A DNA stretch of 17,566 nt, from the IMG/VR virus record IMGVR_UViG_3300029071_000015; one strand, given 5' to 3'. The notes below the pieces were generated by a model, which did not search any database, was not told the DNA's origin, and was given only the letters and a program-made list of their open reading frames with translations. The position numbers and the translations under genes are program-made. Origin of the DNA: a virus (lineage: Duplodnaviria > Heunggongvirae > Uroviricota > Caudoviricetes). Positions 988 to 16,300 of the stretch are shown here, in pieces. The stretch's first letter is position 1; every line of letters starts with the position of its first letter.

Positions 988-988
988 T

Positions 989-2356: not shown

Positions 2357-2520
2357 TGTTTGCCTCTATATTAATGCTACTGCTATCGCCACCTATTAAT
2401 ATCTGCCAATCAATAGGCAAAAAGGTGATACCAGTGGCATCAAAATTTCAGCCAAACAATCTTTGTAAGACGAAGATCTCTGATTTAACACTGCACTGAT
2501 TTTGGGCCAGGGTCAATTTG

Positions 2521-2566
2521 GCCGGGATCTCAAAAAATGCATGGAACTAAAACGGGTCTATTTACA
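2521..2566. repeat. Right arm of the 46-bp inverted repeat
   Basis: gccgggatctcaaaaaatgcatggaactaaaacgggtctatttaca; its last base abuts the first codon of the sid remnant. Confidence 0.85.
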
Positions 2567-2698
2567 ACCGGACTGTCAGCGGCAACACTCCCGCACATGG
2601 ATTATGAGGTGGCAGACACACCGGCACAGCGCAAGGTGTGGCAGGACAAAATAGACCAGCAGGCAGCAGAGCTTAAGGCCAGAGGACTGCTGTCATGA
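2567..2698 (+). pseudogene. sid: 3' remnant (last ~43 codons) of a P4 sid-like capsid-size-determination gene
   Basis: Translation TGLSAATLPHMDYEVADTPAQRKVWQDKIDQQAAELKARGLLS* matches my recollection of the P4 Sid C-terminus; the stop overlaps the next start (tcATGAtg), as expected in a sid-delta-psu late operon. Confidence 0.6.
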
Positions 2699-2806
2699 TG
2701 CGCTGCCATTTCTGTCGTCATTCTGCGCATACCCGCACCGGCAAGCACAGCACCGGCTGTTGTCCGAAAAGTTAAAGGCTGTTACAGCTCACCATTCAAC
2801 CATTAA
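2695..2806 (+). pseudogene. ogr/delta-like zinc-finger late activator gene with internal deletion and frameshift
   Basis: Starts MMRCHFCRHSAHTRT (CxxC zinc-finger start like Ogr/delta) and terminates early; its 3' end in another frame encodes KVKGCYSSPFNH*, matching the C-terminus KVQGCYSSPFRH* of the intact copy at 12450..12689. About 110 bp here versus 240 bp in the intact copy. Confidence 0.55.
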
Positions 2807-2820
2807 TCAGGAGACGGGGT

Positions 2821-3393
2821 GTGACTACAATGTCATTACAGCAGGCTTTTGAGGTCTGCCAGAATAATAAAGCGGCATAGCTTCAGCGCAAAAATGAACT
2901 AGCGGCAGCCGAACAGGAATATCTGCGGCTTCTGTCCGGGGAAGGCAGGAATGTCAACCGGCTGGACGAATTACGCAATATTATCGAAGTCAGAAAATGG
3001 CTGGTGAATCAGGCCGCCGGTCGTTATATTCGTTCGCATGAAGCCGTTCAGCACATCAGCATCTGCGACCGGCTGAATGATTTTATGCAGCAGCACGGCA
3101 CAGCACTGGCGGCCGCACTGGCACCGGAGCTGATGGGCTACAGTGAGCTGACGGCCGTTGCCCGAAACTGAGCCATACAGCGTGCCACAGATGCCCTGCG
3201 TGAAGCCCTCCTGTCCTGGCTTGCGAAGGGTGAAAAAATTAATTATTCCGCACAGGATAGCGACATTTTAACGGCTATCGGATTCAGGCCTGACGAGGCT
3301 TCGGTGGATGACAGCCGTGAAAAATTCACTCCTGCGCAGAACATAATTTTTTCCCGTAAAAGTGCAGAACTGGCATCACGTCAGTCTGTGTAA
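2821..3393 (+). pseudogene. psu: psu (polarity suppression protein) pseudogene with two in-frame stop codons
   Basis: A 573-nt frame (190 codons plus stop, GTG start with RBS aggagacgggGTG) alignable along its length to the intact Psu at 12705..13271 (roughly 60% identity by eye); TAG at 2878..2880 where the intact copy has Trp, and TGA near 3170 where a sense codon is expected. Confidence 0.75.
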
Positions 3394-3423
3394 AATTCCC
3401 CGAAAATCCGCCTGTTTTTACTG

Positions 3424-3458
3424 AAAAAAGCCATGCATCGATAAGGTGCATGGCTTTG
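3424..3458 (+). terminator. Putative intrinsic terminator downstream of psu (element 2 copy)
   Basis: Hairpin gccatgca-tcgataagg-tgcatggc followed by ttt; a homologous hairpin follows the intact psu at 13311..13346. Confidence 0.35.
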
Positions 3459-3557
3459 CATGCGTTTTCCCGCCTCATTTCCTGCAGATCACGCCGCACC
3501 CGGCGCGGCCTGAGCGTGTCAGTGCAACTGCATTAAAACCGCTCCGCAAAGCGGGCG

Positions 3558-3576
3558 GGCGAGGCGGGGAAAGCAC
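3558..3576. other. cos site (19-nt P2/P4-type cohesive-end sequence)
   Basis: ggcgaggcggggaaagcac is identical to the P2/P4 cohesive-end sequence as I recall it, and sits downstream of psu as in P4. Confidence 0.6.
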
Positions 3577-3603: not shown

Positions 3604-4167
3604 TTAAGCATCCGCTTCAAATCCTCCAAGATCGATTTGCTCTTCGATTTCAGGAGTCCAAAGTAATTCTTCTGGCGTAGCGTTTGACCAAAGCAATTTA
3701 CCATTCTCGATAACATACTTAACCGGTATTTTAGGATTGTTTATGTCTTTACCATCTCTTTCATGCCATTGTCTCTCCCATTTATCATAGAAGACTTCCA
3801 AATCACCGGGCATGAGTAAATAAACTGAACGGATAGTGATATTACTATAAATTGCGAACACCCATGGAACCTGCCTATATTTCGCAATTATTGTTGGATT
3901 CATATGATGGTGAGTTGAAAAACTTTTAGTTAACTCAACATTAACTGATTTTAATTCAAACTCAGTACCAGTGACATCTACTGCATCATTACCTTCTCGC
4001 CCAGGAAGAACTTTAAGACTGAGAAGTAAAAGAACTTGCAGGAGTTTCCCTCCGTTATCTTGGAATATATCATTGATTCCGTGCTTATTAGCTAACCGTT
4101 GATATTCTTCAACCTGAGGCCAAAGCGCAATTAAATTTGACCAATCTTGATGCAACTCAAATTTCAT
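3604..4167 (-). CDS. Type II restriction endonuclease, PvuII-like (PD-(D/E)xK)
   Basis: 187-aa ORF; segments [51 protein letters not shown] and DKWER match my recollection of R.PvuII, including the catalytic D...E-x-K; ATGA overlap with the upstream C gene; divergent from the methyltransferase. Confidence 0.75.
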
Positions 4168-4400
4168 ACCTGATTATTCTCCAACAGGGAACTGGGAGAG
4201 ACGCCAAGGGCTGAAGCAATTCGGTCGATATTATCAATGGAAATATTTCTTTCACATCGCTCTACTGATCCGATGTAAGTTCTATGCAAGCCTGCTAAGT
4301 CAGCCAAGGCTTCTTGAGACAACCCTTGTCTCTCCCTTAACTTTCTGATGTTATGGGCAAAAATCACTCTTGCTCTTGAGGGGTTTATCTTTCGTTCCAT
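4164..4400 (-). CDS. Controller (C) protein of restriction-modification system, XRE-family HTH
   Basis: 78-aa ORF with a helix-turn-helix region ([41 protein letters not shown]) resembling C.PvuII-type controller proteins; sits immediately upstream of and overlaps the endonuclease gene. Confidence 0.8.
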
Positions 4401-4427
4401 TCGCGAGACAATGCAGCCTTGATGACA

Positions 4428-4452
4428 ATAGATCTACAGACTATGAGTAGCA
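4428..4452. promoter_or_regulatory. Putative C-box operator in the divergent M/C-R intergenic region
   Basis: The 55-bp intergenic region contains dyad-symmetric elements (tagatcta; actatgagt, i.e. ACT-N3-AGT) just upstream of the C gene start, where C-protein operators normally lie. Confidence 0.4.
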
Positions 4453-4455
4453 GTT

Positions 4456-5430
4456 ATGACATTTGACAATAAAAAACCTGCGTACAAAACAGATTTGGGT
4501 GCAATGTACATTGCTGACTCGCTTGAAATGCTTAAATCGATGCCAGACAACAGCTTAAATTTAGTGATGACAAGCCCACCTTTCGCATTACAGCGTAAGA
4601 AAGAATATGGTAATCACGATCAAGAACAGTACATCGATTGGTTTTTAAAATTCGGCGAGCTGATTTTTAAAAAGCTAAAAGATGATGGTAGCTTTGTCGT
4701 CGATTTTGGTGGTGCTTACATGAAAGGAGTGCCTGTTAGAAGTGTCTACAACTTCCGGGTTTTGATCAGGATGATTGATGAGGTTGGGTTCCATCTGGCT
4801 GAGGACTTCTATTGGTTTAACCCTTCAAAACTACCAAGTCCTATTGAGTGGGTTAACAAAAGAAAGCTGCGTGTTAAAGATTCTGTTAACACAATTTGGT
4901 GGTTTAGCAAAACCGAATGGCCAAAGTCAGATATAACTAAAGTTCTTGTTCCCTATAGTGATAGGATGAAAAAACTTATTGAAGACCCTAATAAATATTA
5001 TTCCCCCAAAATGCGTCCATCAGGGCATGATATAAGCAGCAGCTTTGGCAAAGATAATGGCGGTGCTATACCTCCAAATTTATTGCAAATTCCCAACTCC
5101 GAATCTAACGGTGGATATTTATCGAGTTGTAAAAAAATTGGCGTTAAGGGGCATCCAGCACGATTCCCATCTAAATTGCCGGAGTTTTTCATTACAATGT
5201 TAACAGAGCCGGGTGATCTTGTTGTAGATATTTTTGGCGGTTCAAATACAACTGGAAGTGTTGCTGAACGATTAAAACGCAAATGGCTTTCATTTGAAAT
5301 ATTACCTGAATATGTAGCCGCATCTGTATTTAGATTTACAGATAAAAATACAAGTCAAGATATACTTCAAGAGATGTATGACACTATATTAAATGGAAAT
5401 ACTCTCGATTTATGCGCCAAAGAGAAATAA
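4456..5430 (+). CDS. DNA methyltransferase, beta-class amino-MTase (likely N4-cytosine, M.PvuII-like)
   Basis: 324-aa ORF; motif IV TSPPF near the N-terminus and motif I FGGSNTTG near the C-terminus (the circularly permuted order typical of beta-class N4C/N6A MTases); divergently arranged to the C-R genes. Confidence 0.8.
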   Translation: MTFDNKKPAYKTDLGAMYIADSLEMLKSMPDNSLNLVMTSPPFALQRKKEYGNHDQEQYIDWFLKFGELIFKKLKDDGSFVVDFGGAYMKGVPVRSVYNFRVLIRMIDEVGFHLAEDFYWFNPSKLPSPIEWVNKRKLRVKDSVNTIWWFSKTEWPKSDITKVLVPYSDRMKKLIEDPNKYYSPKMRPSGHDISSSFGKDNGGAIPPNLLQIPNSESNGGYLSSCKKIGVKGHPARFPSKLPEFFITMLTEPGDLVVDIFGGSNTTGSVAERLKRKWLSFEILPEYVAASVFRFTDKNTSQDILQEMYDTILNGNTLDLCAKEK

Positions 5431-5505: not shown

Positions 5506-6764
5506 TTAAGCATGAAGTTTTGCGTAGTCAAATGGACTAATAGGTTTAATCTTGTTTGCATCAAGATAATCAGCCCACCATTGAACCATTAATCGCCTTT
5601 CATCCAAATGTTCAGGGGTATGAATATAAGCTGCCCTAACACTATTACGCTCAGAATGACTCAACTGACGTTCTATCGCGTCATCACTCCATAGCCCCGA
5701 CTCCCCCAACGCACCACGTGCCATATTCCTAAAACCATGACCACAGACTTCCGTTTTTGTGTTATATCCCATCGCACGCAATGCATTGTTTACCGTATTT
5801 TCACTCATAACCTTAGCTGCGTCATGATCTCCCGGGAAAAGAAGCTCTTTATCACCACTAATCTGCTCAAGCTGTACTAACAACATCATCGCCTGCTGGC
5901 TAAGTGGAACTATATGCTCCTCTTTCATTTTCATGCCGCGATACGAGTAACGCACACCTTTAATTTCTTCACGTTTTGCCGGAATACGCCAAATAGCGTT
6001 ATCAAAATCAAATTCTTTCCAACGAGCAAAACGCAATTCGCTTGAACGAACAAAAGTTAGTAAAGAAAGCTCAACCGCAATTTTCGTCATCATACGACCA
6101 CGATATGCAGCAAGACGCGCCAAGAACTCAGGGAAACGATGTGAGGGTAGCGCCGGATAGTGCCGCATTTTAGATGTCGATAACGCTCCAGCCATATCAC
6201 TTGCAGGATTCGAGTCTATATAATCGTTCTGTACGGCATAGCGCATAATAGTAGTGACACGTTGCTGAAGACGCTGCGCTACATCATGCTTACCACTGGC
6301 ATCAACTTTTTTATCGGAGCTAGAAGATGACTAGTTTTAAGCTGTCGGATATCAGACGAGCCAATATAAGGGAAGATATAAAGCTCTAGATAGCGAAGAA
6401 CGCGCCCCCGATGATCCTCGCTCCAACGTTTGTTGCTGGCATGCCATTCACGGGTAATAGTTTCAAAATTATAAGTACCAGCATTCTCTGCTTGGGCCTC
6501 TTTTCGTACTGCTTTTGGATCTATGCCGTGTGCCAGCAACTTTTTCGCTTCATCCCTTCTCGTTCTAGCTTCAGCAAGCGTCACGGTCGGCCAAACACCA
6601 AAAGCAAGACGATCCTCTTTTTTGTCGGAGGGGCGTCTGTATTTCATACGCCAATATTTAGAGCCTTTGATAGAAACCTCAAGATACAAACCGCCACCAT
6701 CAGCCATTTTGTAGGTTTTGTCTTTTAGCTTTGCGGTCTCGACTTGTCTGGCGTTGAGCTTCAT
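5506..6764 (-). pseudogene. int: P4-family tyrosine integrase, frameshifted (split into 6279..6764 and 5506..6246 ORFs)
   Basis: The two ORFs together align along the intact integrase at 16301..17566 (roughly 85-90% identity); the nucleotide alignment shows a 1-bp deletion near 6270..6290 (ttttttatcgg versus ttttttaatcgg in the intact copy) that breaks the frame. Confidence 0.8.
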
Positions 6765-6916: not shown

Positions 6917-6935
6917 TGGTGCGAAGGCCGGACTC
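6917..6935 (-). other. att core remnant: partial copy of a tRNA-Leu (leuX-like) 3' end
   Basis: tggtgcgaaggccggactc is the reverse complement of a tRNA-Leu 3' end (...GAGTCCGGCCTTCG(G)CACCA) with one base missing; located ~150 bp upstream of the frameshifted int, in the same orientation as a tRNA-int arrangement. Confidence 0.45.
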
Positions 6936-7080
6936 AAATTACGATATAACATACTGAAATATAATAATTTTAAATTAAAAGGAAAGTAATATGCCCCCTT
7001 TTGTGCCCCCAACGATTTTTTTGAGCATATAAAACCTAGCTAATTGATATTGCTAACAAATTAAAGATTAACTCCCTATT

Positions 7081-7111
7081 CGGTTAGGATCCGAAATCCG
7101 GATCCTAACCG
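7081..7111. repeat. Perfect 13-bp inverted repeat with 5-nt spacer
   Basis: cggttaggatccg-aaatc-cggatcctaaccg; no flanking T-run, so not a typical intrinsic terminator. Confidence 0.7.
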
Positions 7112-7129
7112 GAACTTAATCCCCACAAA

Positions 7130-7415
7130 AAAGTTTTTTTGCATTTAACTGTTCATACTGTTCACCTTGGTTATTTCTCATTTTATATCATGCAGTTAAG
7201 TGATGATGAGTTGGTGAAGGGTGAACAGTCGACTCTTCACCTTTGTTCGTTTTACTCATTCTGGGGGGGCCCCGTCAGGCGATACACGGGGGGATAAAAA
7301 GTTTTTTCCGGTTTTACTGTTCACACTGTTCACCTCTGGTTTTTTATCAATAATTTCATGGTGATACAGGGTGAACATACGGTGAAGGGTGAACAGTGGA
7401 GTGTTCACCCTGTGG
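7130..7415. promoter_or_regulatory. crr-like cis replication region: two ~120-bp direct repeats containing TGTTCACC-type iterons in both orientations
   Basis: Unit 1 (about 7130..7245) and unit 2 (about 7296..7415) each contain aaaaagttttttt, ctgttcaNactgttcacc and ggtgaagggtgaacag; TGTTCACC is the P4 alpha-protein type I iteron; located just past the 3' end of the primase gene, as crr is in P4. Confidence 0.55.
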
Positions 7416-7461
7416 CAATGTCCAGTAAGAAAATGACCGGCTATTGCCGGTCTTAGGTTGG

Positions 7462-9795
7462 TTATGCCTCTGCGGGGTCGTCGCACTTCGGCAGCCAGTC
7501 GCCGTAGCTTTCCTCTTTCAGCGACAGGTTAGTCTGTATCCCCTGCTTTGTGTGCCGCTTCTCATAATTCAGGCCGTACTCTTTCAGCATCATGGGCAGC
7601 CCCAGCCCGAACATTTTCAGGCTGAGTACGTTCCTGTACCCGTTAGCCTCCATATAGGCCAGATACGCGTGATAGAGATATTTACGGTAATTACGCGGGA
7701 TGATGCTGGCATTCCCCATAAACATCCCGTTGGTCTGCGGGAGCATTTCCAGATAGCCGCAAAAATCAAACGTCGGGTCAGCATCGCGCTTGATGCTGAG
7801 CGCCTCGTCGGAGTTCTGCTGCGACTGGAGCAGTGCGCGCGCTGCCATCGGGTCGCTGAATTTCTGCATAAGCTGGCGCACAATCACGGCCAGCTCACGC
7901 GCAATTTTATCCCTGAGCTGCGGGTCGCGTTCCTCCGGCGCAATCTGCTCCGGGAAGTGGATAATCACCCGGCGGCGCGACACACCGCCGCTGCGGTCGG
8001 TGAAGCGCATGGGGTTATTGTTCACGGCCAGAATCACCGCCGGAATATGTGTTGAGTATGGGTTCTGGTATTTCGGGTCAACTGAGACCGCATCGCCGCC
8101 GGTGATGGCCTTAAGTCCTGCGCCGTCACCGCTCCATTTTTCCTGGTCTGGCAGACGGATTAGCGAGAAGCCAATCAGGGAGGCACGCTTGCGCGGGTCT
8201 TCCAGTGTGTCGATATCGGCCGACGTGGCGTTATCTTCCCCGGCGAGCAGGGTCGCGATTTCGGCCAGAATACTTTTGCCGCTCCCGCCGGGGCCGGTGA
8301 CTTCGAGAAAGAGCTGCCAGTCGTAGCGGTTCGCCAGTACCATAAACAGCGCGGCCAGAATCACGTCGCGTTTTTGTGGATTTTTGCCGGCCGCACGGTC
8401 GAGCCAGCGCCAGAAGTTCGGCGAGTGAGTCTCCAGCGTTTCCCCGTCCACCGGTGGGGTGAAATCCACGTCGCACAGCGTGCGCAGCCAGTGTGATTTA
8501 CTGTGCGGGCTGAACAGGCCGCTCTGGGTATCGAGTACCCCGTTGCGAAAGCCAATCAGACGACGCGCCGGTGTATCCTGCTGCGGAATAATCAGTTTCA
8601 GGGTCTCCACCACCGAGGCAATTTTCCCCGATGAGAACGGGGCGCGCAGACGCTGGAATAAGTCAGCCACATTCCGTGAAAAAGTGGCGGCAGGGATATT
8701 TTTCCAGATGCCGTTTTCATAGCGGGACAGGAGCTGGCCGTTTGCATCCACCGCCAGCGCTTCGCCGTAATGCTCATGCACCCGCAAGGCCTTGTCGCTG
8801 GCGCTCATGGCGGTAAATTCCGCCTCGCTCATGGTATCAAACGGGCTTTGCGCCGGTGGCCGGATAGCGTCATAAATGGCTTTGCGTGTCGCATCCTCAC
8901 CATTCTGCATAAACGCATCATTCCAGTCACCGAACACCGGCGGCAGGGCGACAATGCCCTCACAGGCTTCTGCGGCCGCGGCGGCTTTACTCTGGCCGTC
9001 GCCGTTAAGGTCACGGTCGGCGGCGAGCACAATCTGACAGGCCGGGTGTTTTTGTCGGGCAAGGCTCGCCAGAGAAAGGAGGTTCACGGAGGACAGCGCC
9101 ACCATGACGGTTTCGCCGGTCAGGTGATGCACGGTGAGCGCGGTCGCATAACCCTCCGCTATCCACAGGCGCTTTCCCGCCTGTTTTTTCCCTTCGATGA
9201 TGTGGCACGCTCCTTTTACCGCCCCGCCTTTCAGGGTGCGTTTGAGACCGTCAGAATTAATAAGCTGAACGTTAACCAGCGCCCCGGCATCGTCATACAG
9301 TGGGACAACCATATCACCGGCGCGGAACGTCACACCGCCGGTTTTGTGTGTGGCCGTCAGCATGACACACTCATGACCGGGGAATCCCTTGCGGGTGAGG
9401 TAGGCATTGCCGCTGGCCGGTCGGGTTTTCTCCATGAGCCTGACGGCCAGCGCGGCCGCCGCCTGGCGGTCAACCTCCGTTTCTGCTTCTGCGGCCGCAA
9501 TCACTTCCGGGGCAACCGGCGGCAGGTTGCCGGTCACGGCGTTCACCTTTTGAGCTGCCTCTGACGGATTTACACCGAACACCTTTTCAACCAGCTTAAG
9601 CCCGTCACCTGCGCCACACTGATTGCAAAACCACGTCCCGCGCCCTTCTTTATCATCAAAGCGGAAACGGTCAGAGCCGCCACACACCGGGCAGGACTGA
9701 TGGCGGTTTTTAATCACCTTCACACCCAGCGCAGGGAGAATGTGCGGCCAGTGGCCGCAGGCCTGTTTTACCGTTTCTGTTACGTTCATTTTCAT
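7462..9795 (-). CDS. P4 alpha-like primase-helicase (zinc-binding primase, P-loop NTPase)
   Basis: Long ORF; start chosen at MKMNVTETV with RBS gagggagaaaacaaccATG; N-terminal zinc-finger CPVCGGSDRF...FCNQCG; Walker A GPGGSGKS; size comparable to P4 alpha. Confidence 0.9.
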   Translation of the reverse strand: MKMNVTETVKQACGHWPHILPALGVKVIKNRHQSCPVCGGSDRFRFDDKEGRGTWFCNQCGAGDGLKLVEKVFGVNPSEAAQKVNAVTGNLPPVAPEVIAAAEAETEVDRQAAAALAVRLMEKTRPASGNAYLTRKGFPGHECVMLTATHKTGGVTFRAGDMVVPLYDDAGALVNVQLINSDGLKRTLKGGAVKGACHIIEGKKQAGKRLWIAEGYATALTVHHLTGETVMVALSSVNLLSLASLARQKHPACQIVLAADRDLNGDGQSKAAAAAEACEGIVALPPVFGDWNDAFMQNGEDATRKAIYDAIRPPAQSPFDTMSEAEFTAMSASDKALRVHEHYGEALAVDANGQLLSRYENGIWKNIPAATFSRNVADLFQRLRAPFSSGKIASVVETLKLIIPQQDTPARRLIGFRNGVLDTQSGLFSPHSKSHWLRTLCDVDFTPPVDGETLETHSPNFWRWLDRAAGKNPQKRDVILAALFMVLANRYDWQLFLEVTGPGGSGKSILAEIATLLAGEDNATSADIDTLEDPRKRASLIGFSLIRLPDQEKWSGDGAGLKAITGGDAVSVDPKYQNPYSTHIPAVILAVNNNPMRFTDRSGGVSRRRVIIHFPEQIAPEERDPQLRDKIARELAVIVRQLMQKFSDPMAARALLQSQQNSDEALSIKRDADPTFDFCGYLEMLPQTNGMFMGNASIIPRNYRKYLYHAYLAYMEANGYRNVLSLKMFGLGLPMMLKEYGLNYEKRHTKQGIQTNLSLKEESYGDWLPKCDDPAEA

Positions 9796-9809
9796 GGTTG
9801 TTTTCTCCC

Positions 9810-10130
9810 TCAGTGCAGTACCGGCGCGGTGATATGACGGGCGCAAAGCTCATCCATCACGGCCAGCCCGAGAAAGGACAGCGACGGCGCGGCTTTGAGT
9901 GGTCCGGCTTCCATTAAATCCTCCAGTAGTGCACAGGCAATCTGGCGGCCTTTTTCCTCGCCGTGCTGGCGCAGGTAGAAGCCCTCCAGTTCGGCGGCAA
10001 TAGTGCTTTCCAGCGCGTCGAGGGTGAGGTGTGGATGGCGGTGCTGACGTTCGCACAGGGTCAGCCATGCACAGGCCACGGCGCGACGATACAGCGCGGC
10101 GCGTAATACGGGCGGTAATGGCTTTTTCAT
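9810..10130 (-). CDS. Hypothetical protein, P4-family early-operon gene upstream of primase
   Basis: 106-aa ORF ending 14 nt upstream of the primase start; ATGA overlap with the preceding gene suggests an operon. Confidence 0.5.
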
Positions 10131-10354
10131 ACGTTACCCTCCCCGGTCAGCCAGTGCTGATTGCAGCGTTCTACCACGCCGTCGAGCTGGGCAGTCATGA
10201 GATAAATCACGGAGGTGAGCTGTAACTGCTGCGCCGGGTCACGCCTAACGGTCGCGCAGTCCTGCACCTGCATCAGGTCGCCGACGAGCTGGCCGACATT
10301 GCGCATATGCTCCAGACATTCGAGGTCACGGGCGGTAATGGTGGTGTGTCTCAT
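10127..10354 (-). CDS. Hypothetical small protein (early operon)
   Basis: About 75-aa ORF; start placed at the second ATG, which overlaps the stop of the upstream small ORF (gcATGAgacac). Confidence 0.45.
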
Positions 10355-10545
10355 GCGCACACCTCCGCAACCGGCAGACGGCCAGCGAACGAGAGAAAGT
10401 AATCGCGAACGAGAGAAAGGCGAGCGGCGTGCTCATCACCGGCAACGGTGCGAAGCATACAGATACGGGGTTTACGGTCTGCGCGACGAACGGCGGCAAA
10501 CACAAAGACAAACTGCGGGTGTGACGGGGTGAGGGTCGTAGCCAT
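10351..10545 (-). CDS. Hypothetical small protein (64 aa)
   Basis: Short version of the 183-aa ORF, starting at MATTLTPSH with GGAG about 9 nt upstream; the longer form would overlap the AlpA-like gene and an apparently non-coding region. Confidence 0.3.
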
Positions 10546-10747
10546 AGCGGCAATCTCCAATAAGTAGCGGTTATCGCCACCACAAGAGCTGCAAATCTCA
10601 TGGGTGGTAGCCCGGACAGGGTTTGCAGTACCGGCCTTATTGGAAACCGGCCAGCCCGAAGGCTGCCCCGCCCGGACCACCATTATCTGACAGGAGCCAC
10701 GGTGTAAGCACCACAGCCCGAAAAATAGGTGTGTCTGAGCAACGACA

Positions 10748-10770
10748 TAAAAAAACACGCTCGGCGCGTG
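10748..10770 (-). terminator. Putative intrinsic terminator (minus strand) downstream of the AlpA-like gene
   Basis: 6-bp stem acacgc/gcgtgt with 5-nt loop, followed on the minus strand by a run of 7-8 U. Confidence 0.35.
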
Positions 10771-10898
10771 TTGTGTCGCCAATAAGTTACACGGGCTGCA
10801 AATCCCGGCTGCCGATTTTGCGACAGCGGGAAAACTATACCTGGAAACGGCGAAAAGAAGCAAGCCAGAAAAAGGGGCTGTTTGCTGAACGGTCATCA

Positions 10899-11165
10899 TC
10901 ACGCGTCATAGCCCTGGTTACGTTCGGCAATGCGATCCGCCATCCATGCAGTGATTTCAGACTGCGCCCACGCCACATTTTTTCCGCCGAGGGAGATTTG
11001 TTTCGGGAAGGCTTCCCGGCTGATAAGGTCGTAAATGGTCGAACGGGACAGGCCGCACAGATGCATCACTTCGGGCAGACGGATAAAGCGCTCGTGAACG
11101 GTATCAGAAACCGGCATCAGCGGCGCGGCAGGGGCAGAAGACGGGGAAGAAAAAGCGGTGTGCAT
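10899..11165 (-). CDS. AlpA/Vis-family phage transcriptional regulator (excisionase-like HTH)
   Basis: 88-aa ORF containing [42 protein letters not shown], typical of AlpA-family proteins; RBS gaggtagcccgATG; the true start may be the internal Met (MPVSD). Confidence 0.75.
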
Positions 11166-11294
11166 CGGGCTACCTCATAAAGTCCATACAGTGCCGGTCG
11201 TGTCCGTCCGGCTTCGGGTAACTCCTTATTATGTCTATATTTTTCCTCAGGTCATGTGAGATTTTCGGGGAAACAAACATTGACTTTTCCCTAT

Positions 11295-11331
11295 GGCAAA
11301 CAAAGGCAAACGCTGGCAAACATATGCAAAT
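11295..11331. promoter_or_regulatory. Four 7-bp direct repeats (GGCAAAC x3, TGCAAAT) at exact 10-bp spacing: putative operator array
   Basis: Repeats start at 11295, 11305, 11315 and 11325; one helical turn apart; in the divergent regulatory region between the AlpA-like and sid-like genes. Confidence 0.4.
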
Positions 11332-11339
11332 CACTGCAT

Positions 11340-11540
11340 TACAATGCAGCAATTTCTATTTCTTTTAGTTATATATTTTTTATTTTTAATCGAAATAAAA
11401 TCTAGATGCTATAGCCAGGGCAAAACAGGAGGGTGAACAGTGGTGAACAGTCGGTGAACAGTCAGACCCTCAACTGTTCACCATTTAACTTACTGTATTA
11501 CTTATCTTTTTATTTAAGGTGAACAGTGGTGAATAGTTAT
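11340..11540. promoter_or_regulatory. ori-like region: AT-rich stretch plus cluster of GGTGAACA/TGTTCACC iterons
   Basis: AT-rich 11340..11410; iterons gggtgaacagtggtgaacagtcggtgaacagt...ctgttcacc (11432..11483) and ggtgaacagtggtgaatagt (11517..11538); same octamer as in the crr-like region. Confidence 0.5.
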
Positions 11541-11612
11541 AAGTAAAAAAACAAACGGTGAGTTAGATTTTCCTGCGACCTTTCTCTGGCCAGCCTGATT
11601 TTAAGGTCTGTT

Positions 11613-11630
11613 TGTGCCAGCACTCTGACA
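11613..11630 (+). promoter_or_regulatory. TGT-N12-ACA element, candidate Ogr/Delta-activated late promoter site (Psid-like)
   Basis: tgtgccagcactctgaca lies ~75-90 bp upstream of the sid-like start; P2/P4 late promoters carry a TGT-N12-ACA activator site around -55. Confidence 0.3.
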
Positions 11631-11702
11631 ACGGTAATGAATCGTGTTGTTGTGCAGGAGGCGTCAGAATCATTTCAGGTTGAACACACGGAGAGCCTGA
11701 AC

Positions 11703-12446
11703 ATGAAACCCGAACTCATTATCAAAGCCATGCAGACCGTTATCAGTAAACAGGATGAAGGCGCGGAACAACGCATTGCCGGTGCGCTGGCCGCACTTAA
11801 CGAAGCAAAAGACGCATACATGGCCAGCATGGAAAAACTCAGCGACATTGAGGCTTCCATTCAGCGTTGTGAGCAGGAACGACAGACTGCCCTCAGTGAA
11901 AGCGCACAGGCCGAACAGGACTGGCGCAGCCGCTTTCGAACCCTGCGTGGCAACCTCACTCCTGAACTGAAAGCTGAACACAGTAAGCGTATCGCCAGCC
12001 GCGAACTGGCTGATGAGTTCACCGGTCTGATTACCGAGCTCGAGAAAGACAAAAGCCTCGCCATGCTTGGCGCATGCTCCTCCGGTACGGCTTATATCCG
12101 CGCCCATGAAAAAGCATTCACCACTTACGCCAACAGCGAGTGGAAGAAGGCGCAGGCCGGAATCAGCCCCGCACTGTTACGTGCCTTCCTGTTGCGTATA
12201 CGGTCGCTGGAAATGAGTGGGGAAACCTCGCCGCGCGCGACCGTGAATCGCGAGCTGGGTGATGCACTTAATATGCAGTCAGCCCTGTATCATTTTAATA
12301 TTACACAGGAGCCGGTTCTGTCCGTAACGGGCATGAATCGTCCGGTAATTACCGGGGTTGATATGGAACTGTTCAAAAGCCCCGCCAAACGGATGAAGCT
12401 TGCCGCTGAACTGGCAGCCAAAAACCCTGAACAGGCGGAGGGCTGA
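11703..12446 (+). CDS. Sid-like protein (putative capsid-size-determination / external scaffold), divergent
   Basis: About 247 aa from the internal Met with RBS ggagagcctgaacATG; coiled-coil-like, Ala/Glu/Gln-rich; sits immediately upstream of delta and psu as sid does in P4; C-terminal segment (EPVLSVTGMNRPVITGVDMELF) shows weak resemblance to the P4 Sid C-terminus seen at 2567..2698. Confidence 0.55.
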   Translation: MKPELIIKAMQTVISKQDEGAEQRIAGALAALNEAKDAYMASMEKLSDIEASIQRCEQERQTALSESAQAEQDWRSRFRTLRGNLTPELKAEHSKRIASRELADEFTGLITELEKDKSLAMLGACSSGTAYIRAHEKAFTTYANSEWKKAQAGISPALLRAFLLRIRSLEMSGETSPRATVNRELGDALNMQSALYHFNITQEPVLSVTGMNRPVITGVDMELFKSPAKRMKLAAELAAKNPEQAEG

Positions 12447-12449
12447 ATT

Positions 12450-12689
12450 ATGTTTCACTGCCCGTTCTGCAAAAAGACCTCGCATGTCCGAACCAGCCGG
12501 TATCTGTCGGAAAACGTCAAACAGCGTTATCACCAGTGTACCAATATCGAATGCTCGGCCACTTTCCGCACCATCGAGTCTGTTGACGGTGTGATACGTG
12601 CCGCACCGGAGAAAACCGACCCCGCCCCGGTGACGCCAGCGCCGCCGCGTAAAGTACAGGGCTGCTACAGCTCGCCGTTCCGGCATTAA
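12450..12689 (+). CDS. Ogr/Delta-family zinc-finger late transcription activator
   Basis: 79-aa ORF MFHCPFCKKTSHVRTSRY...YHQCTNIECSATF with the CxxC...CxxC arrangement of P2 Ogr / P4 delta; starts 3 nt after the sid-like stop. Confidence 0.85.
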   Translation: MFHCPFCKKTSHVRTSRYLSENVKQRYHQCTNIECSATFRTIESVDGVIRAAPEKTDPAPVTPAPPRKVQGCYSSPFRH

Positions 12690-12704
12690 TCAGGAGAGAG
12701 ACAC

Positions 12705-13271
12705 GTGACCACTGTGACATTGCAGCAGGCCTTTGAGGCCTGTCAGACGAACAAAAACACCTGGCTGAAACGTAAAGCCGAACTGGCCGACCTTGAACTT
12801 GAATACCGTGAACAGCTCCTTGCCGGTGACGAACAAATCCCGCGCAAAATGCAGGATTTGCGCGACAATATCGACGTGAAAAAATGGGAGATTAATCAGA
12901 CTGCCGGTCGCTATATCCGCTCACATGAGGAGGTGCAGCACATCAGCATTCGCAACCGGCTCAATGACTTTATGCAGCAGCACGGCGCGGAGCTGGCCGC
13001 CACGCTGGCACCTGAGCTGATGGGATATCACGAACAGCTTCCCGCAGTAAAACAGAGCGCCATGCAGCACTCGGTTGATTATCTGCGTGAAGCCCTGTCG
13101 GTGTGGCTGGCCGCCGGTGAAAAAATTAATTATTCCGTGCAGGACAGCGATATTTTAACGGCCATCGGATTCAGGCCTGATGCGGCTTCGCGGGATGATA
13201 GTCGCGAAAAATTCACCCCGGCACAGAACCTGATTTACACCCGCCGACGTGCAGAACTGGCCACACGGTAG
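12705..13271 (+). CDS. psu: Psu-like polarity suppression protein
   Basis: 188-aa ORF (GTG start with RBS caggagagagacacGTG) with conserved blocks AGRYIRSHE.VQHISI, RLNDFMQQHG, LAPELMGY, GEKINYS.QDSDILTAIGFRPD and DSREKFTPAQN matching my recollection of P4 Psu and the pseudogene copy at 2821..3393. Confidence 0.85.
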   Translation: MTTVTLQQAFEACQTNKNTWLKRKAELADLELEYREQLLAGDEQIPRKMQDLRDNIDVKKWEINQTAGRYIRSHEEVQHISIRNRLNDFMQQHGAELAATLAPELMGYHEQLPAVKQSAMQHSVDYLREALSVWLAAGEKINYSVQDSDILTAIGFRPDAASRDDSREKFTPAQNLIYTRRRAELATR

Positions 13272-13310
13272 CACGCGAAAAAATCCCCGAAAATTCCGCT
13301 ATTTTTCCTG

Positions 13311-13346
13311 AAAAAAGCCATGCATCCATAAGGTGCATGGTTTTGC
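13311..13346 (+). terminator. Putative intrinsic terminator after psu
   Basis: Hairpin gccatgca-tccataagg-tgcatgg followed by tttt. Confidence 0.4.
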
Positions 13347-13444
13347 ATGCAAATCCCCGTATTTTTTATCCCACGCAACACCAGTGCCGGTGCGGCCTGA
13401 GGCCGTTCATGCACCTGCATTAAAAGCGACCTCTTAAGCGGGCA

Positions 13445-13463
13445 GGCGTGGCGGGGAGAGCAT
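13445..13463. other. Variant cos-like site (16/19 match to the P2/P4 cohesive-end sequence)
   Basis: ggcgtggcggggagagcat versus canonical ggcgaggcggggaaagcac (present intact at 3558..3576); same position relative to psu and the upstream hairpin. Confidence 0.45.
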
Positions 13464-13588
13464 TGCGCGCTAAGCCGTGAGGATAATTATTATCCTACTC
13501 ATGACCTGTCTAATCGGAAAGAAGTGAAAATATTCATGTAACCCCTGAATATTTAACGTTAAACCGATCAAATTCTAGGGCGAAAATA

Positions 13589-13618
13589 TTGCCTGAGCTA
13601 AGTCAATGGGAGTATGCT
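13589..13618 (+). promoter_or_regulatory. Candidate sigma70 promoter for the cargo cassette
   Basis: TTGCCT-N18-TATGCT about 50 bp upstream of the cassette start codon at 13669; weak match, by eye only. Confidence 0.25.
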
Positions 13619-13668
13619 TAATTTTTGATCATGGTGCATATCCAAAGATAAGAAGCTAAGGAAAGAGC

Positions 13669-14748
13669 ATGAATGTAGGGCATCTCAATTTTTTCAAGGT
13701 TAATAAGTGCGGTTTATACAAGGTAAATGATGACAATACCTATGGTTTAGAACTAAGCGAAACATTTGACCTCATACAGGATTGGGTAGGAACTAAACCT
13801 CTTGCACTCACCATACCATGGGACCCAAAAGAAAAACCCAATAGATCAAAGTGTTATTGTAAAGACATCTACAAAGATGAAAATACTGGTGATTTTTTAA
13901 TCATGTTATGGAAATCTGATACTGATAGTACTGGTTCTTTATTAGGAGCGAGTGAAGACGGTGAAATCGGAAGTTCATCAGTGGTTAAATATACTAATAG
14001 CTACAGAGGGAAAAAAGTCATCTGGGGTCGCCCATGCTTTTATTGGGTTATACCTGAACTTGAAACTATAGTTTCTATTAAATTCGATCATTCTGTTTGT
14101 GACTCTGAACTATTTCAAGATTATGTACACTCATCTATTACTAATAGAGTTAAACATAGCAAAAGAGTTAAAAATAAAACCGAGAAAGGTTATATAAGAT
14201 TATCTAATACTGATGACGAAGATTTATATAAATACATGTACAGATTTGATATGAAGCTCCGAAGCTTAGAAACCACTCATGCTGAGTTAGGTAAATTGAT
14301 ATCAAAAATAACACATATTGTTCGCAGAGAAACCATTATTATAAATCCAAATGACGCACGAGCTGATTGGTTAAAGACTTTTAGCACTCTCGTTCCATTT
14401 GTGTCCGGAAAGAAAAACACCAGAACAAGACAGATTGAAATAAAAGCAGAAGCGAAGCCATCCTTGAAAGAAGTTCAAGAAATAATTGAAAAACATTCTG
14501 CTGAGGATAGAGAAAAACGTCTTTGGGATAATGTGGGATTTGCGACGGACAAGGGCATAACATGGGTGGATAAATATAGAATGCGTGATATTCTCAATGT
14601 CCCTTCCGAAGACTATTCGACATATACCGCTGCATATATCTACGAACACATATCACACAAAAGAAAAGAATTCATTTCCCCTATATTAAAAGAGCTAAAA
14701 GCATTAAAATCTCAATCAAGAATAAAGAAAGCATCTGGAGAGGATTGA
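13669..14748 (+). CDS. Hypothetical protein (cargo gene A, 359 aa, soluble, Lys-rich)
   Basis: Long ORF with RBS aaggaaagagcATG; AT-rich codon usage contrasting with the satellite backbone; no catalytic motif I can recognise; stop directly abuts the next start (TGAATG). Confidence 0.7.
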   Translation: MNVGHLNFFKVNKCGLYKVNDDNTYGLELSETFDLIQDWVGTKPLALTIPWDPKEKPNRSKCYCKDIYKDENTGDFLIMLWKSDTDSTGSLLGASEDGEIGSSSVVKYTNSYRGKKVIWGRPCFYWVIPELETIVSIKFDHSVCDSELFQDYVHSSITNRVKHSKRVKNKTEKGYIRLSNTDDEDLYKYMYRFDMKLRSLETTHAELGKLISKITHIVRRETIIINPNDARADWLKTFSTLVPFVSGKKNTRTRQIEIKAEAKPSLKEVQEIIEKHSAEDREKRLWDNVGFATDKGITWVDKYRMRDILNVPSEDYSTYTAAYIYEHISHKRKEFISPILKELKALKSQSRIKKASGED

Positions 14749-15285
14749 ATGTTAAAAGCTATAGTAGGCCTCGTCAAATACACATGGATATACATAGCAA
14801 TATTCATTATATCGCTATTGGTCATTTTACCATCCGATATTTACTATGTGTATAACGATTTTGCTAACTATTGCACTCTTCTCGTATCAGTTTCTGGAAT
14901 GGTTTTTACTATTATGGGGATTTGGTTAGCGTTTCTTTATCCAAATGCTTTGCAGCGTATTGTTAACCCCAAAACTATAGAAACTGTTGATTTCACCGAA
15001 CAACTGGAAGATACAAAAAGGTTAGAAGCAATAGTTGGAAGTGTTCTAAAATCATCTTTCGTTATGATTACTTTACTTGTTGTATATTTAGTTAAACTAG
15101 TATTTTTCAAGAGTCATCTTTATTTAGAGAGTCAAGAAGTAATAAAAGACATATCTTTAGCATTAATTATTGCCATTTCATACATGCAGATTGAGGCAGT
15201 GATTAGTGTAATACTAGCTAATGTTATGTTTATCAATGATTTACATAATAAGCGAGAGCAAAGAGACATCGACGATCAAGTATGA
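14749..15285 (+). CDS. Hypothetical integral membrane protein (cargo gene B, 178 aa, ~4 TM helices)
   Basis: Four hydrophobic segments (WIYIAIFIISLLVIL, LLVSVSGMVFTIMGIWLAFLY, FVMITLLVVYLVKLVFF, LALIIAISYMQIEAVISVILANVMFI); translationally coupled to gene A. Confidence 0.7.
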   Translation: MLKAIVGLVKYTWIYIAIFIISLLVILPSDIYYVYNDFANYCTLLVSVSGMVFTIMGIWLAFLYPNALQRIVNPKTIETVDFTEQLEDTKRLEAIVGSVLKSSFVMITLLVVYLVKLVFFKSHLYLESQEVIKDISLALIIAISYMQIEAVISVILANVMFINDLHNKREQRDIDDQV

Positions 15286-15292
15286 GGAAAAA

Positions 15293-16246: not shown

Positions 16247-16263
16247 TTAAAGTGTTTAACACA

Positions 16264-16300
16264 AAATAAACGCCTATTTAAATTATAGGCGTTTATTTTG
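16264..16300. terminator. Bidirectional intrinsic terminator between cargo gene C and int
   Basis: Hairpin aaacgcctat-ttaaatt-ataggcgttt flanked by an A-run upstream and a T-run downstream; lies between convergent genes. Confidence 0.5.

What the first reader, a model, noticed from the sequence alone, without database searches (positions are those of the whole stretch)
5506..6764. Integrase of the decayed element inactivated by a single-base deletion; two directly repeated int genes flank the intact satellite
Seen in sequence: compared with the intact copy (ttttttaatcgg near 17130), the decayed copy reads ttttttatcgg near 6275, shifting the frame and ending the N-terminal ORF after about 161 aa. 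The two int genes are 1.26-kb direct repeats about 10 kb apart at roughly 85-90% identity. Inference: homologous recombination between them could delete the intact element and cargo, or make hybrids. The frameshift could alternatively be a sequencing error.
Basis: partly seen in the sequence, partly recalled or inferred. Interest (0 to 1): 0.4.

Follow-up and report, generated by a model that had tools for sequence, protein, structure and literature searches.

The report
Frameshifted integrase pseudogene beside P4-like satellite
The broken integrase gene is a real, inherited pseudogene left in an old, decayed P4-like phage-satellite remnant at the leuX tRNA gene of Escherichia marmotae, next to which a second, complete satellite later integrated; this is an ordinary and already described situation.

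Summary
The one-base deletion is real, but it lies at window 6307-6314, not about 6275. It is not a sequencing error. The same allele occurs in all 20 further fetched loci that are not the window's own contig, and its exact 161-aa product was seen on 108 contigs. No intact allele was found anywhere. The closest intact relatives read ATA AAA AAA, so the lesion is an A7-to-A6 contraction. After the break, the catalytic half varies as expected without constraint: 7 nonsynonymous changes (one nonsense) against 2 synonymous. The neighbouring PvuII-type methylase gene shows 1 against 7.

The two int genes are 79.7% identical in DNA, not 85-90%. They are 88% identical in protein, with dS 1.75, dN/dS 0.034 and a longest identical run of 23 nt. 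They are diverged homologues brought by two separate integrations at leuX, not a duplication. A tRNA-derived att core at 6917-6938 separates the elements. Most related genomes carry only the remnant, and one carries a different satellite at the same junction.

RecA-dependent int-int deletion or hybrid formation should therefore be rare, and no hybrid was seen. Int-mediated att x att excision is the likely exit route for the intact element.

Two curiosities remain. The lesion creates an in-register A_AAA_AAG -1 slippery heptamer. The N-terminal 450 nt are invariant. Neither is supported as functional.

The parts
5506..6764 (-). int': frameshifted P4-family tyrosine integrase pseudogene of the decayed element. 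With one base restored it is a 419-aa open frame.
   Evidence: Pfam finds Arm-DNA-bind_3 and half of Phage_int_M in the first ORF, and Phage_integrase in the second.
6279..6764 (-). N-terminal ORF of 161 aa (arm-binding domain plus part of the central domain). It ends at a TAG stop 8 codons after the shift.
   Evidence: The exact product occurs on 108 contigs and is named as an Escherichia marmotae / Escherichia sp. KTE11 integrase.
6306..6314 (-). Lesion site. The coding strand reads GAT AAA AAA G, i.e. ATA AAA AAG. This is an A6 run where the closest intact relatives have A7. It forms the heptamer A_AAA_AAG in the 0-frame register.
5506..6246 (-). C-terminal ORF of 246 aa holding the whole catalytic domain. 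It is out of frame with the N-terminal part and varies without detectable constraint.
   Evidence: 7 nonsynonymous changes, including Q179* and C341Y, against 2 synonymous.
6917..6938 (-). Middle att core (TGGTGCGAAGGCCGGACTCAAA). It is an imperfect copy of the 3' end of tRNA-Leu(CAA) leuX. It serves as attR of the intact satellite and marks the old tRNA-proximal end of the remnant.
   Evidence: ARAGORN finds no complete tRNA in the window.
16301..17566 (-). Intact int of the P4-like satellite (421 aa). It is 89.9% identical in DNA to the int of phage P4.
   Evidence: An intact leuX tRNA lies just beyond the window in the same strain type.
6939..17566 (.). Complete P4-like satellite. Components: crr repeats 7128-7409; alpha primase 7462-9795; DUF5375 gene 9810-10130; cI RNA 10600-10687; alpA 10899-11165; sid-position gene 11637-12446; delta 12450-12689; psu 12705-13271; cos-like site 13445-13463; cargo 13669-16246; int.
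3604..5430 (.). PvuII-type restriction-modification cassette in the psu-int hotspot of the decayed element: R 3604-4167 (-), C 4164-4400 (-), M 4456-5430 (+).
   Evidence: Polymorphism is mostly synonymous (M 7 synonymous to 1 nonsynonymous; R 2 to 1).
2567..3576 (+). Remains of the sid/delta/psu genes of the decayed element, with in-frame stops in psu', followed by a perfect P2/P4 cos 19-mer at 3558-3576. This is the second roughly 78-80% direct-repeat block, matching 12648-13463.

Best explanation
int' (5506-6764) is a true, vertically inherited pseudogene of a leuX-specific P4-family tyrosine integrase.

The remnant it belongs to:
- It is a degraded P4-like satellite that appears fixed in Escherichia marmotae.
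- Retained: int', a PvuII-type R-M-C cassette in the psu-int defence hotspot, a perfect cos site, and broken psu/delta/sid genes.
- Lost: primase, immunity region and distal att site.

The lesion:
- One A was lost from an A7 run (ATA AAA AAA GTT became ATA AAA AAG TTG).
- Translation stops after 161 aa, before the catalytic domain.
- Since then the catalytic half has accumulated changes without detectable constraint, while the restriction-modification genes stayed under purifying selection. Mobility was lost and the defence cargo kept.

The second int:
- It belongs to a separate, complete P4-like satellite whose int is about 90% identical to that of P4.
- That satellite later integrated by site-specific recombination into the same leuX attB, between the tRNA and the remnant, which produced the tandem array.
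- The 1.26-kb direct repeat is therefore two old homologues side by side, not a duplication.

Consequences:
- RecA-dependent deletion or hybrid formation between the two int genes should be very rare.
- The intact element most likely leaves by Int/AlpA-mediated attL x attR excision.

Shown here: the lesion, its inheritance, relaxed constraint on the catalytic half, the divergence between the copies, the att junction, and presence/absence polymorphism of satellites.
Inferred: the order of events, the excision route, and the rarity of recombination.
For: Lesion and its inheritance:
- There is a single indel in the coding-region alignment.
- Restoring one base gives a 419-aa open frame with no other stop.
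- All loci fetched through the 161-aa product, through the R protein, or by a DNA pattern carry CCGATAAAAAAGTTG. That is 22 loci; two of them (L099, L106) are the window's own contig.
- The metagenome pattern allowed A6 or N+A6 and matched only A6.
- The repaired protein is absent from the 15-billion-sequence collection.
- The best full-length relatives are 88-90% identical.
- The closest intact relatives, E. coli L001 and L002, have A7 at this site.

Relaxed constraint:
- Downstream of the shift there are 7 nonsynonymous changes (including Q179* and C341Y) against 2 synonymous.
- The probability of at least 7 of 9 being nonsynonymous is 5e-6 under the historical omega of 0.034. It is 0.69 under omega = 1.
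- The neighbouring M gene shows 7 synonymous to 1 nonsynonymous.

Independent origin of the two int genes:
- 79.7% nucleotide identity, dS 1.75, dN/dS 0.034, longest identical run 23 nt.

Tandem architecture and site-specific insertion:
- The att core and the conserved sequence downstream of the tRNA are identical to the tRNA-int' junction of single-element genomes.
- Most genomes have int' directly beside leuX. L006 has a different satellite at the same junction.
- An intact tRNA-Leu(CAA) lies upstream of the intact int.

P4 identity of the intact element.

Literature:
- Tandem P4-like elements and their pseudogenization are described in PMC8628076.
- Defective P4 elements with broken mobility genes and intact defence genes are described in PMC13586616.
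- The psu-int defence hotspot, including restriction-modification systems, is described in PMC9122126.
Against: - The N-terminal 450 nt of int' show no polymorphism at all in 20 alleles, against 9 sites in the downstream 808 nt (Fisher p = 0.03). Pure neutral decay of the whole gene does not predict this.
- The lesion leaves an in-register A_AAA_AAG heptamer, so a trace of full-length Int could still be made.
- The polymorphism sample is small (9 haplotypes), and half of it was selected through the exact N-terminal product.
- Excision of the intact satellite and the inactivity of int' were not tested experimentally.
Confidence: 0.85

Rival explanations
1. The frameshift is a sequencing or assembly error at a homopolymer, and the integrase is really intact.
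For: The lesion lies in an A/T homopolymer, which is a typical site for such errors.
Against: - The same A6 allele is found in independent NCBI isolate assemblies (for example GCA_000408325.1, GCA_000208565.2 and the complete genome CP099351.1). It is also found in several ENA/JGI metagenomes.
- The exact truncated product occurs on 108 contigs.
- No A7 or N+A6 allele was found.
- Downstream polymorphism looks neutral and includes a nonsense mutation.
Confidence: 0.01
2. The gene is recoded rather than dead. Ribosomes slip -1 on A_AAA_AAG (0-frame ATA AAA AAG) and produce full-length Int with the exact wild-type sequence PIKK|VDASGK. The 161-aa product would then act as a regulator, as in the OrfA/OrfAB arrangement of IS3-family transposases.
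For: - The heptamer is in the correct register, and a -1 shift restores the ancestral protein sequence.
- A_AA.A_AA.G is among the most slip-prone motifs in E. coli. It gives more than 0.1% frameshifting even without stimulators (PMC4066793).
- The downstream frame is still open in 8 of 9 haplotypes.
Against: - The downstream half shows 7 nonsynonymous changes (one nonsense, one beside the HxxR box) against 2 synonymous. This fits omega = 1 and is incompatible with the earlier omega of 0.03.
- No stimulatory hairpin was found (fold z = -0.04), and no Shine-Dalgarno-like element lies upstream (sequence).
- Any A7-to-A6 loss followed by G at this codon phase creates the motif automatically.
- Without stimulators the yield would be well under 1% (PMC4066793).
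Confidence: 0.04
3. The 161-aa arm-binding fragment is retained by selection as a stand-alone DNA-binding protein. It could, for example, occupy the arm sites of incoming leuX-specific P4-like satellites and modulate their integration or excision.
For: - There are zero polymorphic sites in the first 450 nt in 20 alleles. By comparison there are 9 in the downstream 808 nt, at least 8 in the 155-nt upstream spacer, and 8 in the M gene. Fisher p = 0.03.
- The int promoter region and the start codon are retained.
- Isolated N-domains of lambda Int are known to modulate the recombinase (own knowledge, not checked here).
Against: - The statistic is marginal and was examined after the fact.
- Selection on a protein predicts that synonymous variation persists (about 3 sites expected), yet none is seen. 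That pattern points to chance or a local sweep or recombination tract rather than protein-level selection.
- Half of the sample was chosen by exact N-terminal sequence.
- Satellites do integrate next to the fragment (window, L006), so it does not block integration.
Confidence: 0.07
4. One reading: the two int genes act as substrates for homologous recombination that deletes the intact satellite and its cargo, or creates hybrid integrases, at a biologically relevant rate.
For: - The two genes are in direct orientation over 1.26 kb.
- A crossover downstream of codon 151 would yield an in-frame chimeric int next to the restriction-modification cassette.
- A second homology block (psu/cos) also exists.
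Against: - Identity is 79.7% and the longest perfect run is 23 nt.
- The bacterial minimum identity block is up to about 30 bp, and about 20% divergence reduces recombination at least 10^4-fold in mismatch-repair-proficient cells (PMC8918686).
- No conversion tracts were seen. int' in tandem strains differs by only 0-4 nt from int' in single-element strains.
- No chimeric full-length protein above 90% identity was found in the database.
- Single-element genomes have a precise tRNA-int' junction, as expected from site-specific events.
Confidence: 0.05

Closest known systems
Integrase of satellite phage P4 and the leuX-inserted P4-like prophages or islands of E. coli (for example the loci in NZ_CP033635 and O157:H7 FRIK944)
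   Same: - Same three-domain architecture: Arm-DNA-bind_3, Phage_int_M and Phage_integrase.
- Same position immediately downstream of tRNA-Leu(CAA) and same orientation.
- Same psu - hotspot - int layout.
- The intact copy is 89.9% identical in DNA to P4 int. int' is 87-89% identical to the E. coli leuX integrases.
   Different: int' carries a one-base loss in the A7 run and is split into 161-aa and 246-aa ORFs. The rest of its element (alpha, cI, epsilon, distal att) is gone.
Tandem and pseudogenized P4-like elements (Moura de Sousa and Rocha, PMC8628076), and defective P4 elements that keep intact defence genes (PMC13586616)
   Same: - A complete P4-like element sits next to a group of P4-homologous genes.
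- Mobility genes are pseudogenized while the hotspot defence system stays intact.
- Inactivation by frameshift also occurs in P4-like genes in those surveys (reported there for alpA).
   Different: Those surveys did not describe this particular E. marmotae remnant or its int lesion. The pseudogenes they report most often are alpA/ash (PMC8628076, PMC13586616) and, in defective elements, the primase (PMC13586616), not int.
PvuII-family restriction-modification systems SptAI and SbaI of Salmonella enterica
   Same: - The R protein falls in the same 90%-identity cluster as proteins that sources name SbaIR and 'type II restriction endonuclease PvuII'. The M protein falls in the same cluster as a protein named SptAIM.
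- R aligns over its full length to R.PvuII structures and keeps the D...ExK motif.
- From my own recollection of Naderer et al. 2002 (J Bacteriol), not retrievable here: the Salmonella systems lie between P4-related ORFs, one of which is an integrase.
   Different: The host is E. marmotae, and the adjacent integrase is frameshifted.
IS3-family and dnaX -1 programmed frameshift sites (A_AAA_AAG)
   Same: The heptamer is identical and in the correct register. The -1 product would fuse a DNA-binding N-terminal part to a catalytic C-terminal part (PMC4066793).
   Different: There is no downstream hairpin or upstream Shine-Dalgarno-like stimulator. There is no purifying selection on the -1 frame product. 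The motif arose as a by-product of a homopolymer deletion.

Membership tests
P4-type tyrosine integrase (Pfam Arm-DNA-bind_3 + Phage_int_M + Phage_integrase) | Three-domain architecture above Pfam gathering scores | tested here: met
   The intact copy has all three domains in one 421-aa protein. In int' they are split: Arm-DNA-bind_3 and Phage_int_M positions 1-55 lie in the 161-aa ORF, and Phage_integrase lies in the 246-aa ORF.
P4-type tyrosine integrase (Pfam Arm-DNA-bind_3 + Phage_int_M + Phage_integrase) | Catalytic box residues (Arg in ..VRSSELR.., HxxR in ..GHGFR.., Tyr in ..RAAYIH..) | tested here: met
   The motifs are present and identical in both copies when the frame is repaired. 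Assignment of the residues rests on general knowledge of tyrosine recombinases, not on a structural alignment made here. One population allele has C341Y next to HxxR.
P4-type tyrosine integrase (Pfam Arm-DNA-bind_3 + Phage_int_M + Phage_integrase) | A single uninterrupted reading frame, i.e. a functional gene | tested here: not met
   int' has a -1 nt lesion at 6307-6314 and a stop at 6279-6281. The lesion is shared by all related loci. The intact copy meets this feature.
P4-type tyrosine integrase (Pfam Arm-DNA-bind_3 + Phage_int_M + Phage_integrase) | Integration at the 3' end of tRNA-Leu(CAA) leuX, with int directly downstream of the tRNA | tested here: met
   - tRNA-Leu(CAA) lies about 150 nt upstream of int' in single-element genomes.
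- The same tRNA lies upstream of the intact int in tandem genomes.
- A partial tRNA 3' core lies at 6917-6938 between the elements.
P4-like phage satellite (core set as used by SatelliteFinder: int, alpha, epsilon, alpA, sid, delta, psu; plus cos and cI RNA) | int, alpha primase-helicase, alpA, delta and psu present and intact (element at 6939-17566) | tested here: met
   Pfam hits. There is 82.7% nucleotide similarity to P4 over 43% of the element, including alpha, ori/crr and int.
P4-like phage satellite (core set as used by SatelliteFinder: int, alpha, epsilon, alpA, sid, delta, psu; plus cos and cI RNA) | cI immunity RNA | tested here: met
   Rfam C4 antisense RNA at 10600-10687, 85.9 bits against a gathering score of 45.
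P4-like phage satellite (core set as used by SatelliteFinder: int, alpha, epsilon, alpA, sid, delta, psu; plus cos and cI RNA) | epsilon (derepression protein) and sid | tested here: inconclusive
   - The gene at the sid position (11637-12446) has no Pfam hit.
- The 77-aa ORF at the epsilon position (10127-10360) has no Pfam hit.
- A related satellite (L006) does carry a gene matching the Pfam 'Derepression' family.
- A 75-aa protein absent from P4 is reported in 61% of P4-like elements (PMC8628076).
P4-like phage satellite (core set as used by SatelliteFinder: int, alpha, epsilon, alpA, sid, delta, psu; plus cos and cI RNA) | cos packaging site matching a P2-like helper | tested here: inconclusive
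   The decayed element has the perfect 19-mer GGCGAGGCGGGGAAAGCAC at 3558-3576. The intact element has a variant with 3 mismatches at 13445-13463. Helper compatibility cannot be tested with these tools.
Pseudogene (non-functional relic) | Disrupted frame inherited across lineages, with no intact allele | tested here: met
Pseudogene (non-functional relic) | Relaxed selective constraint after the lesion | tested here: met
   Met for the catalytic half: 7 nonsynonymous (1 nonsense) against 2 synonymous. Not demonstrable for the N-terminal 450 nt, which show no variation at all.
Programmed -1 ribosomal frameshift site | X_XXY_YYZ slippery heptamer in the 0-frame register | tested here: met
   A_AAA_AAG with 0-frame codons AAA AAG. 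A -1 shift yields the ancestral sequence.
Programmed -1 ribosomal frameshift site | Stimulatory elements (upstream Shine-Dalgarno-like sequence, downstream hairpin or pseudoknot) | tested here: not met
   The fold of 116 nt around the site is no more stable than shuffled sequences (z = -0.04). No GGAG-like motif lies 6-17 nt upstream (sequence).
Programmed -1 ribosomal frameshift site | Purifying selection on the trans-frame product | tested here: not met
PvuII-type type II restriction-modification system with C protein | R with the PvuII fold and motif, an N4/N6 methyltransferase, an HTH controller protein, and divergent M / C-R organisation | tested here: met
   - Pfam: PF09225 (E = 6.5e-62), PF01555 and PF01381.
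- PADLOC: REase_II and MTase_II.
- R matches PDB PvuII chains at E = 7.7e-74 and keeps NDAVD...ELK.

The most novel reading that the evidence does not exclude
The lesion did not simply kill the gene. One possibility is that the 161-aa arm-binding fragment, invariant over 450 nt in all 20 sampled alleles, is kept as a trans-acting modulator of incoming leuX-specific P4-like satellites. Another is that the in-register A_AAA_AAG heptamer lets a trickle of full-length Int be made by -1 frameshifting. That would resemble the OrfA/OrfAB control of IS3-family transposases, applied to a tyrosine integrase.
Probability: 0.07. Interest if true: 0.55.

Novelty: new member of a known kind. Interest (0 to 1): 0.15.

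Why it matters
- It is a clean, datable example of how a P4-like satellite is domesticated. Integrase function is lost by a homopolymer slip and the replication and immunity genes are deleted. The defence cargo (a PvuII-type restriction-modification system) stays under purifying selection.
- It shows that the regenerated leuX site remains a landing pad for new satellites.
- For annotation, int' should be called a pseudogene, not two genes, and the two elements should be delimited at the att core (6917-6938).
- It does not open a new question. The general pattern is already described for P4-like elements.

Tried and rejected
- Sequencing error: rejected by population evidence.
- Search for an intact allele. 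The E. coli complete genomes give at best 89% DNA identity. The 5.8-billion-cluster protein search gives a best full-length hit of 88%. Sampled cluster members are at most 90% identical. An exact look-up of the repaired protein found nothing. The metagenome pattern that allowed either allele matched only A6.
- Exact 37-mer scan of GTDB species-representative genomes: no match. The species was named instead from source annotations of identical proteins.
- The genome-contig scan with the R protein returned mostly distant PvuII homologues in unrelated phyla. It gave no further int' context.
- Distal att site of the decayed element: no second copy of the tRNA core was found in the window. The remnant therefore cannot be delimited or excised as a unit.
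- Stimulators of programmed frameshifting: none found.
- Recent gene conversion between the two int genes: none. The longest identical run is 23 nt.
- Caveat: the 'intC_repaired' rows were computed in the wrong (unrepaired) frame and are not used.
Full report
**1. What is in the sequence**

Two long minus-strand reading frames for P4-type integrases lie in the window. One is intact: 16301-17566, 421 aa, with Arm-DNA-bind_3, Phage_int_M and Phage_integrase domains. The other is split into a 161-aa ORF (6279-6764) and a 246-aa ORF (5506-6246).

A pairwise alignment shows exactly one indel in the coding region. The deletion is thus at about 6307-6314, roughly 35 nt from the stated position. Position 6279-6281 is the premature stop.

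Inserting one base gives an open 419-aa frame with no other defect. Identity over the coding region is 79.7% in DNA (1003 of 1259 positions) and 88% in protein. Start-to-start spacing is 10.8 kb.

**2. Context: two P4-like elements in tandem at leuX**

The right-hand element (about 6939-17566) is a complete P4-like satellite. Its parts are:
- crr repeats and an alpha primase-helicase of 777 aa;
- a DUF5375 gene;
- the cI immunity RNA (Rfam C4, 85.9 bits) with an adjacent isrK hit;
- alpA, a gene at the sid position, delta (Ogr_Delta) and psu;
- a cos-like site;
- a three-gene cargo, two genes of which match the PADLOC candidate defence system PDC-M18;
- int.

This element is 82.7% identical to phage P4 over 43% of its length. 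Its int is 89.9% identical to P4 int.

The left-hand element is a remnant. It retains:
- int';
- a PvuII-type R-M-C cassette (R 3604-4167, C 4164-4400, M 4456-5430) in the psu-int hotspot;
- a perfect P2/P4 cos 19-mer at 3558-3576;
- psu'/delta'/sid' fragments with in-frame stops.

It has no primase, no immunity region and no second att core.

Between the elements, at 6917-6938, lies an imperfect copy of the 3' end of tRNA-Leu(CAA). The sequence that follows it towards int' is the same one that follows the real tRNA in E. coli and in related genomes. In genomes with the same intact int, a complete tRNA-Leu(CAA) sits about 160 nt upstream of that int.

The order is therefore: leuX - [intact satellite: int ... 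alpha] - att core - [remnant: int' - RM - cos - psu'...] - nanS.

The tRNA-proximal element must be the later arrival. This is inferred from how integration at a tRNA 3' end works.

**3. Not a sequencing error**

The exact 161-aa product is listed in 252 blocks of the public collection and was seen on 108 contigs. Sources name it as an integrase of Escherichia marmotae or Escherichia sp. KTE11.

I fetched 9 loci through that product, 9 through the R protein, and 2 through a DNA pattern. These cover independent NCBI isolate assemblies, including a complete genome, and ENA/JGI metagenomes. Two of the loci (L099, L106) are the window's own contig. All read CCGATAAAAAAGTTG. The metagenome pattern allowed either A6 or one extra base, and only A6 was found.

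Other searches for an intact allele also failed:
- The repaired protein is not in the 15-billion-sequence collection.
- No full-length relative exceeds 88-90% identity.
- The complete E. coli genomes reach only 89% DNA identity.

The two closest intact relatives, both leuX integrases of E. coli, read ATA AAA AAA GTT at this site. The P4-type copies read ATT AAA AAA GTT. The most parsimonious lesion is thus loss of one A from an A7 run. AAAAAAA runs are noted as indel-prone in PMC4066793.

**4. Is it really dead?**

Among 20 alleles (9 haplotypes) read in the repaired frame, the 808 nt downstream of the shift carry 7 nonsynonymous changes. These include Q179* in one lineage and C341Y next to the HxxR box. 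Only 2 changes are synonymous.

The two int genes have diverged under dN/dS = 0.034 with dS = 1.75. Under that constraint the chance of at least 7 of 9 changes being nonsynonymous is 5e-6. Under neutrality it is 0.69. In the same genomes the M gene shows 7 synonymous to 1 nonsynonymous, the R gene 2 to 1, and the C gene no variation.

So the catalytic half shows no sign of the earlier constraint, while the restriction-modification genes are conserved. R also keeps the PvuII catalytic D...ExK motif. This matches the published pattern of defective P4-like elements with broken mobility genes and intact defence genes (PMC13586616), and of pseudogenized tandem elements (PMC8628076).

**5. Two oddities, examined and not supported as functional**

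(a) The lesion leaves ATA AAA AAG, which is the dnaX/IS3-type slippery heptamer A_AAA_AAG in the right register. A -1 slip would regenerate the exact ancestral sequence PIKK|VDASGK. This motif is among the most shift-prone in E. coli, but without stimulators it gives only a few tenths of a percent (PMC4066793). Here there is no stimulatory fold (z = -0.04) and no Shine-Dalgarno-like element upstream. The -1 product is not under selection. Any A7-to-A6 loss at this codon phase would create the motif.

(b) The first 450 nt of int' are invariant in all 20 alleles. The 155-nt upstream spacer, the downstream half and the neighbouring genes all vary. Fisher p = 0.03. This is marginal, was noticed after the fact, and half the sample was chosen by the N-terminal protein. 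Protein-level selection would also not remove synonymous variation. I record it as unexplained.

**6. The recombination inference**

The two int genes are old homologues brought in by separate integrations, not a duplication (dS 1.75). The longest identical stretch is 23 nt. Bacterial RecA recombination needs an identity block of up to about 30 bp, and about 20% divergence lowers recombination at least 10^4-fold in mismatch-repair-proficient cells (PMC8918686).

There is also no empirical trace of exchange:
- int' in the tandem strains differs by 0-4 nt from int' in single-element strains.
- There is no high-identity tract between the two copies.
- No chimeric integrase appears in the protein search.

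The population instead shows presence/absence and replacement of satellites exactly at the att core. Most genomes have no satellite, L006 has a different one, and the window type has this one. This is the signature of site-specific recombination. Deletion or hybrid formation by int-int crossover is possible in principle but should be rare.

**7. Comparison with what is known, and verdict**

- int' fails membership as a functional integrase because its frame is broken. It remains an unambiguous member of the P4/leuX integrase family by domains, motifs and att site.
- The right-hand element is a P4-like satellite. Most core features were met. epsilon and sid could not be identified by Pfam. The cos site is a variant.
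- The remnant's cargo belongs to the PvuII/SptAI/SbaI family. I recall, but could not retrieve here, that the Salmonella systems also lie between P4-related ORFs (Naderer et al. 2002).

Everything fits described biology: the psu-int defence hotspot (PMC9122126), tandem and pseudogenized P4-like elements (PMC8628076), and domesticated defective P4 elements (PMC13586616).

The finding is real but ordinary. It is a new example of a known kind. Interest is 0.15.

Noticed in passing
window 6306-6312 (coding strand A_AAA_AAG): The frameshift lesion creates the canonical -1 slippery heptamer in the correct register. A -1 slip would restore the exact ancestral protein sequence. No stimulators were found, and the downstream frame shows no purifying selection.
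   Followed up: yes
window 6315-6764 (first 450 nt of int'): There are no polymorphic sites in 20 alleles from different assemblies, although the upstream spacer, the downstream half of int' and the neighbouring genes all vary (Fisher p about 0.03). This remains unexplained.
   Followed up: partly
window 6917-6938; also L006 about 9826-9850: The att core between the two elements differs from the real tRNA 3' end by a C-to-T change and one missing G (TTTGAGTCCGGCCTTC-GCACCA against TTCGAGTCCGGCCTTCGGCACCA). The same variant is present in L006, where a different P4-like satellite occupies the site. It probably derives from the satellites' attP.
   Followed up: partly
window 3558-3576 and 13445-13463: The decayed remnant keeps a perfect P2/P4 cos 19-mer (GGCGAGGCGGGGAAAGCAC). 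The complete satellite has a variant with 3 mismatches (GGCGTGGCGGGGAGAGCAT), which may point to a different P2-like helper.
   Followed up: partly
window 1305-2566: A 1.26-kb segment is bounded by 46-nt inverted repeats that are 98% complementary (1305-1350 and 2521-2566). It contains a 197-aa ORF with hydrophobic stretches and no Pfam or PADLOC hit. It abuts the sid'/delta' remains of the remnant. It may be a non-autonomous mobile insertion. It is present in related genomes too.
   Followed up: no
window 13669-16246: The hotspot cargo of the intact satellite has two genes that match the PADLOC candidate defence system PDC-M18 (A: E = 1.5e-38; B: E = 9.6e-16). A third ORF, listed as 341 aa here and called as 317 aa in related loci, has no family hit. 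Proteins in the same 90%-identity clusters as the first two genes occur in Shigella, E. coli, Klebsiella and Serratia.
   Followed up: partly
window 3604-5430: A PvuII-type restriction-modification system with a controller protein. Its R and M proteins fall in the same 90%-identity clusters as the Salmonella SbaI/SptAI proteins. It is intact and under purifying selection inside an otherwise decayed element.
   Followed up: partly
window 10600-10827: Rfam C4 antisense RNA (the P4 cI immunity RNA family) and an adjacent isrK hit, both well above their gathering scores. A 183-aa GTG-initiated ORF that overlaps them is probably spurious.
   Followed up: no
window 815-1297: The 160-aa ORF listed here carries an HNH_2 endonuclease domain and lies between nanS and the inverted-repeat-bounded segment. 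The gene is called as 102 aa in related loci. All 8 polymorphic sites among the sampled genomes are nonsynonymous in the 160-aa frame, so it may be decaying or mis-framed.
   Followed up: no
L003-L011, for example L003 9338-9568 (outside the window): In E. marmotae the ahr gene next to leuX is called only as a 76-aa ADH_N fragment, whereas E. coli has a full-length ahr at the same place. It may be another pseudogene at this junction.
   Followed up: no
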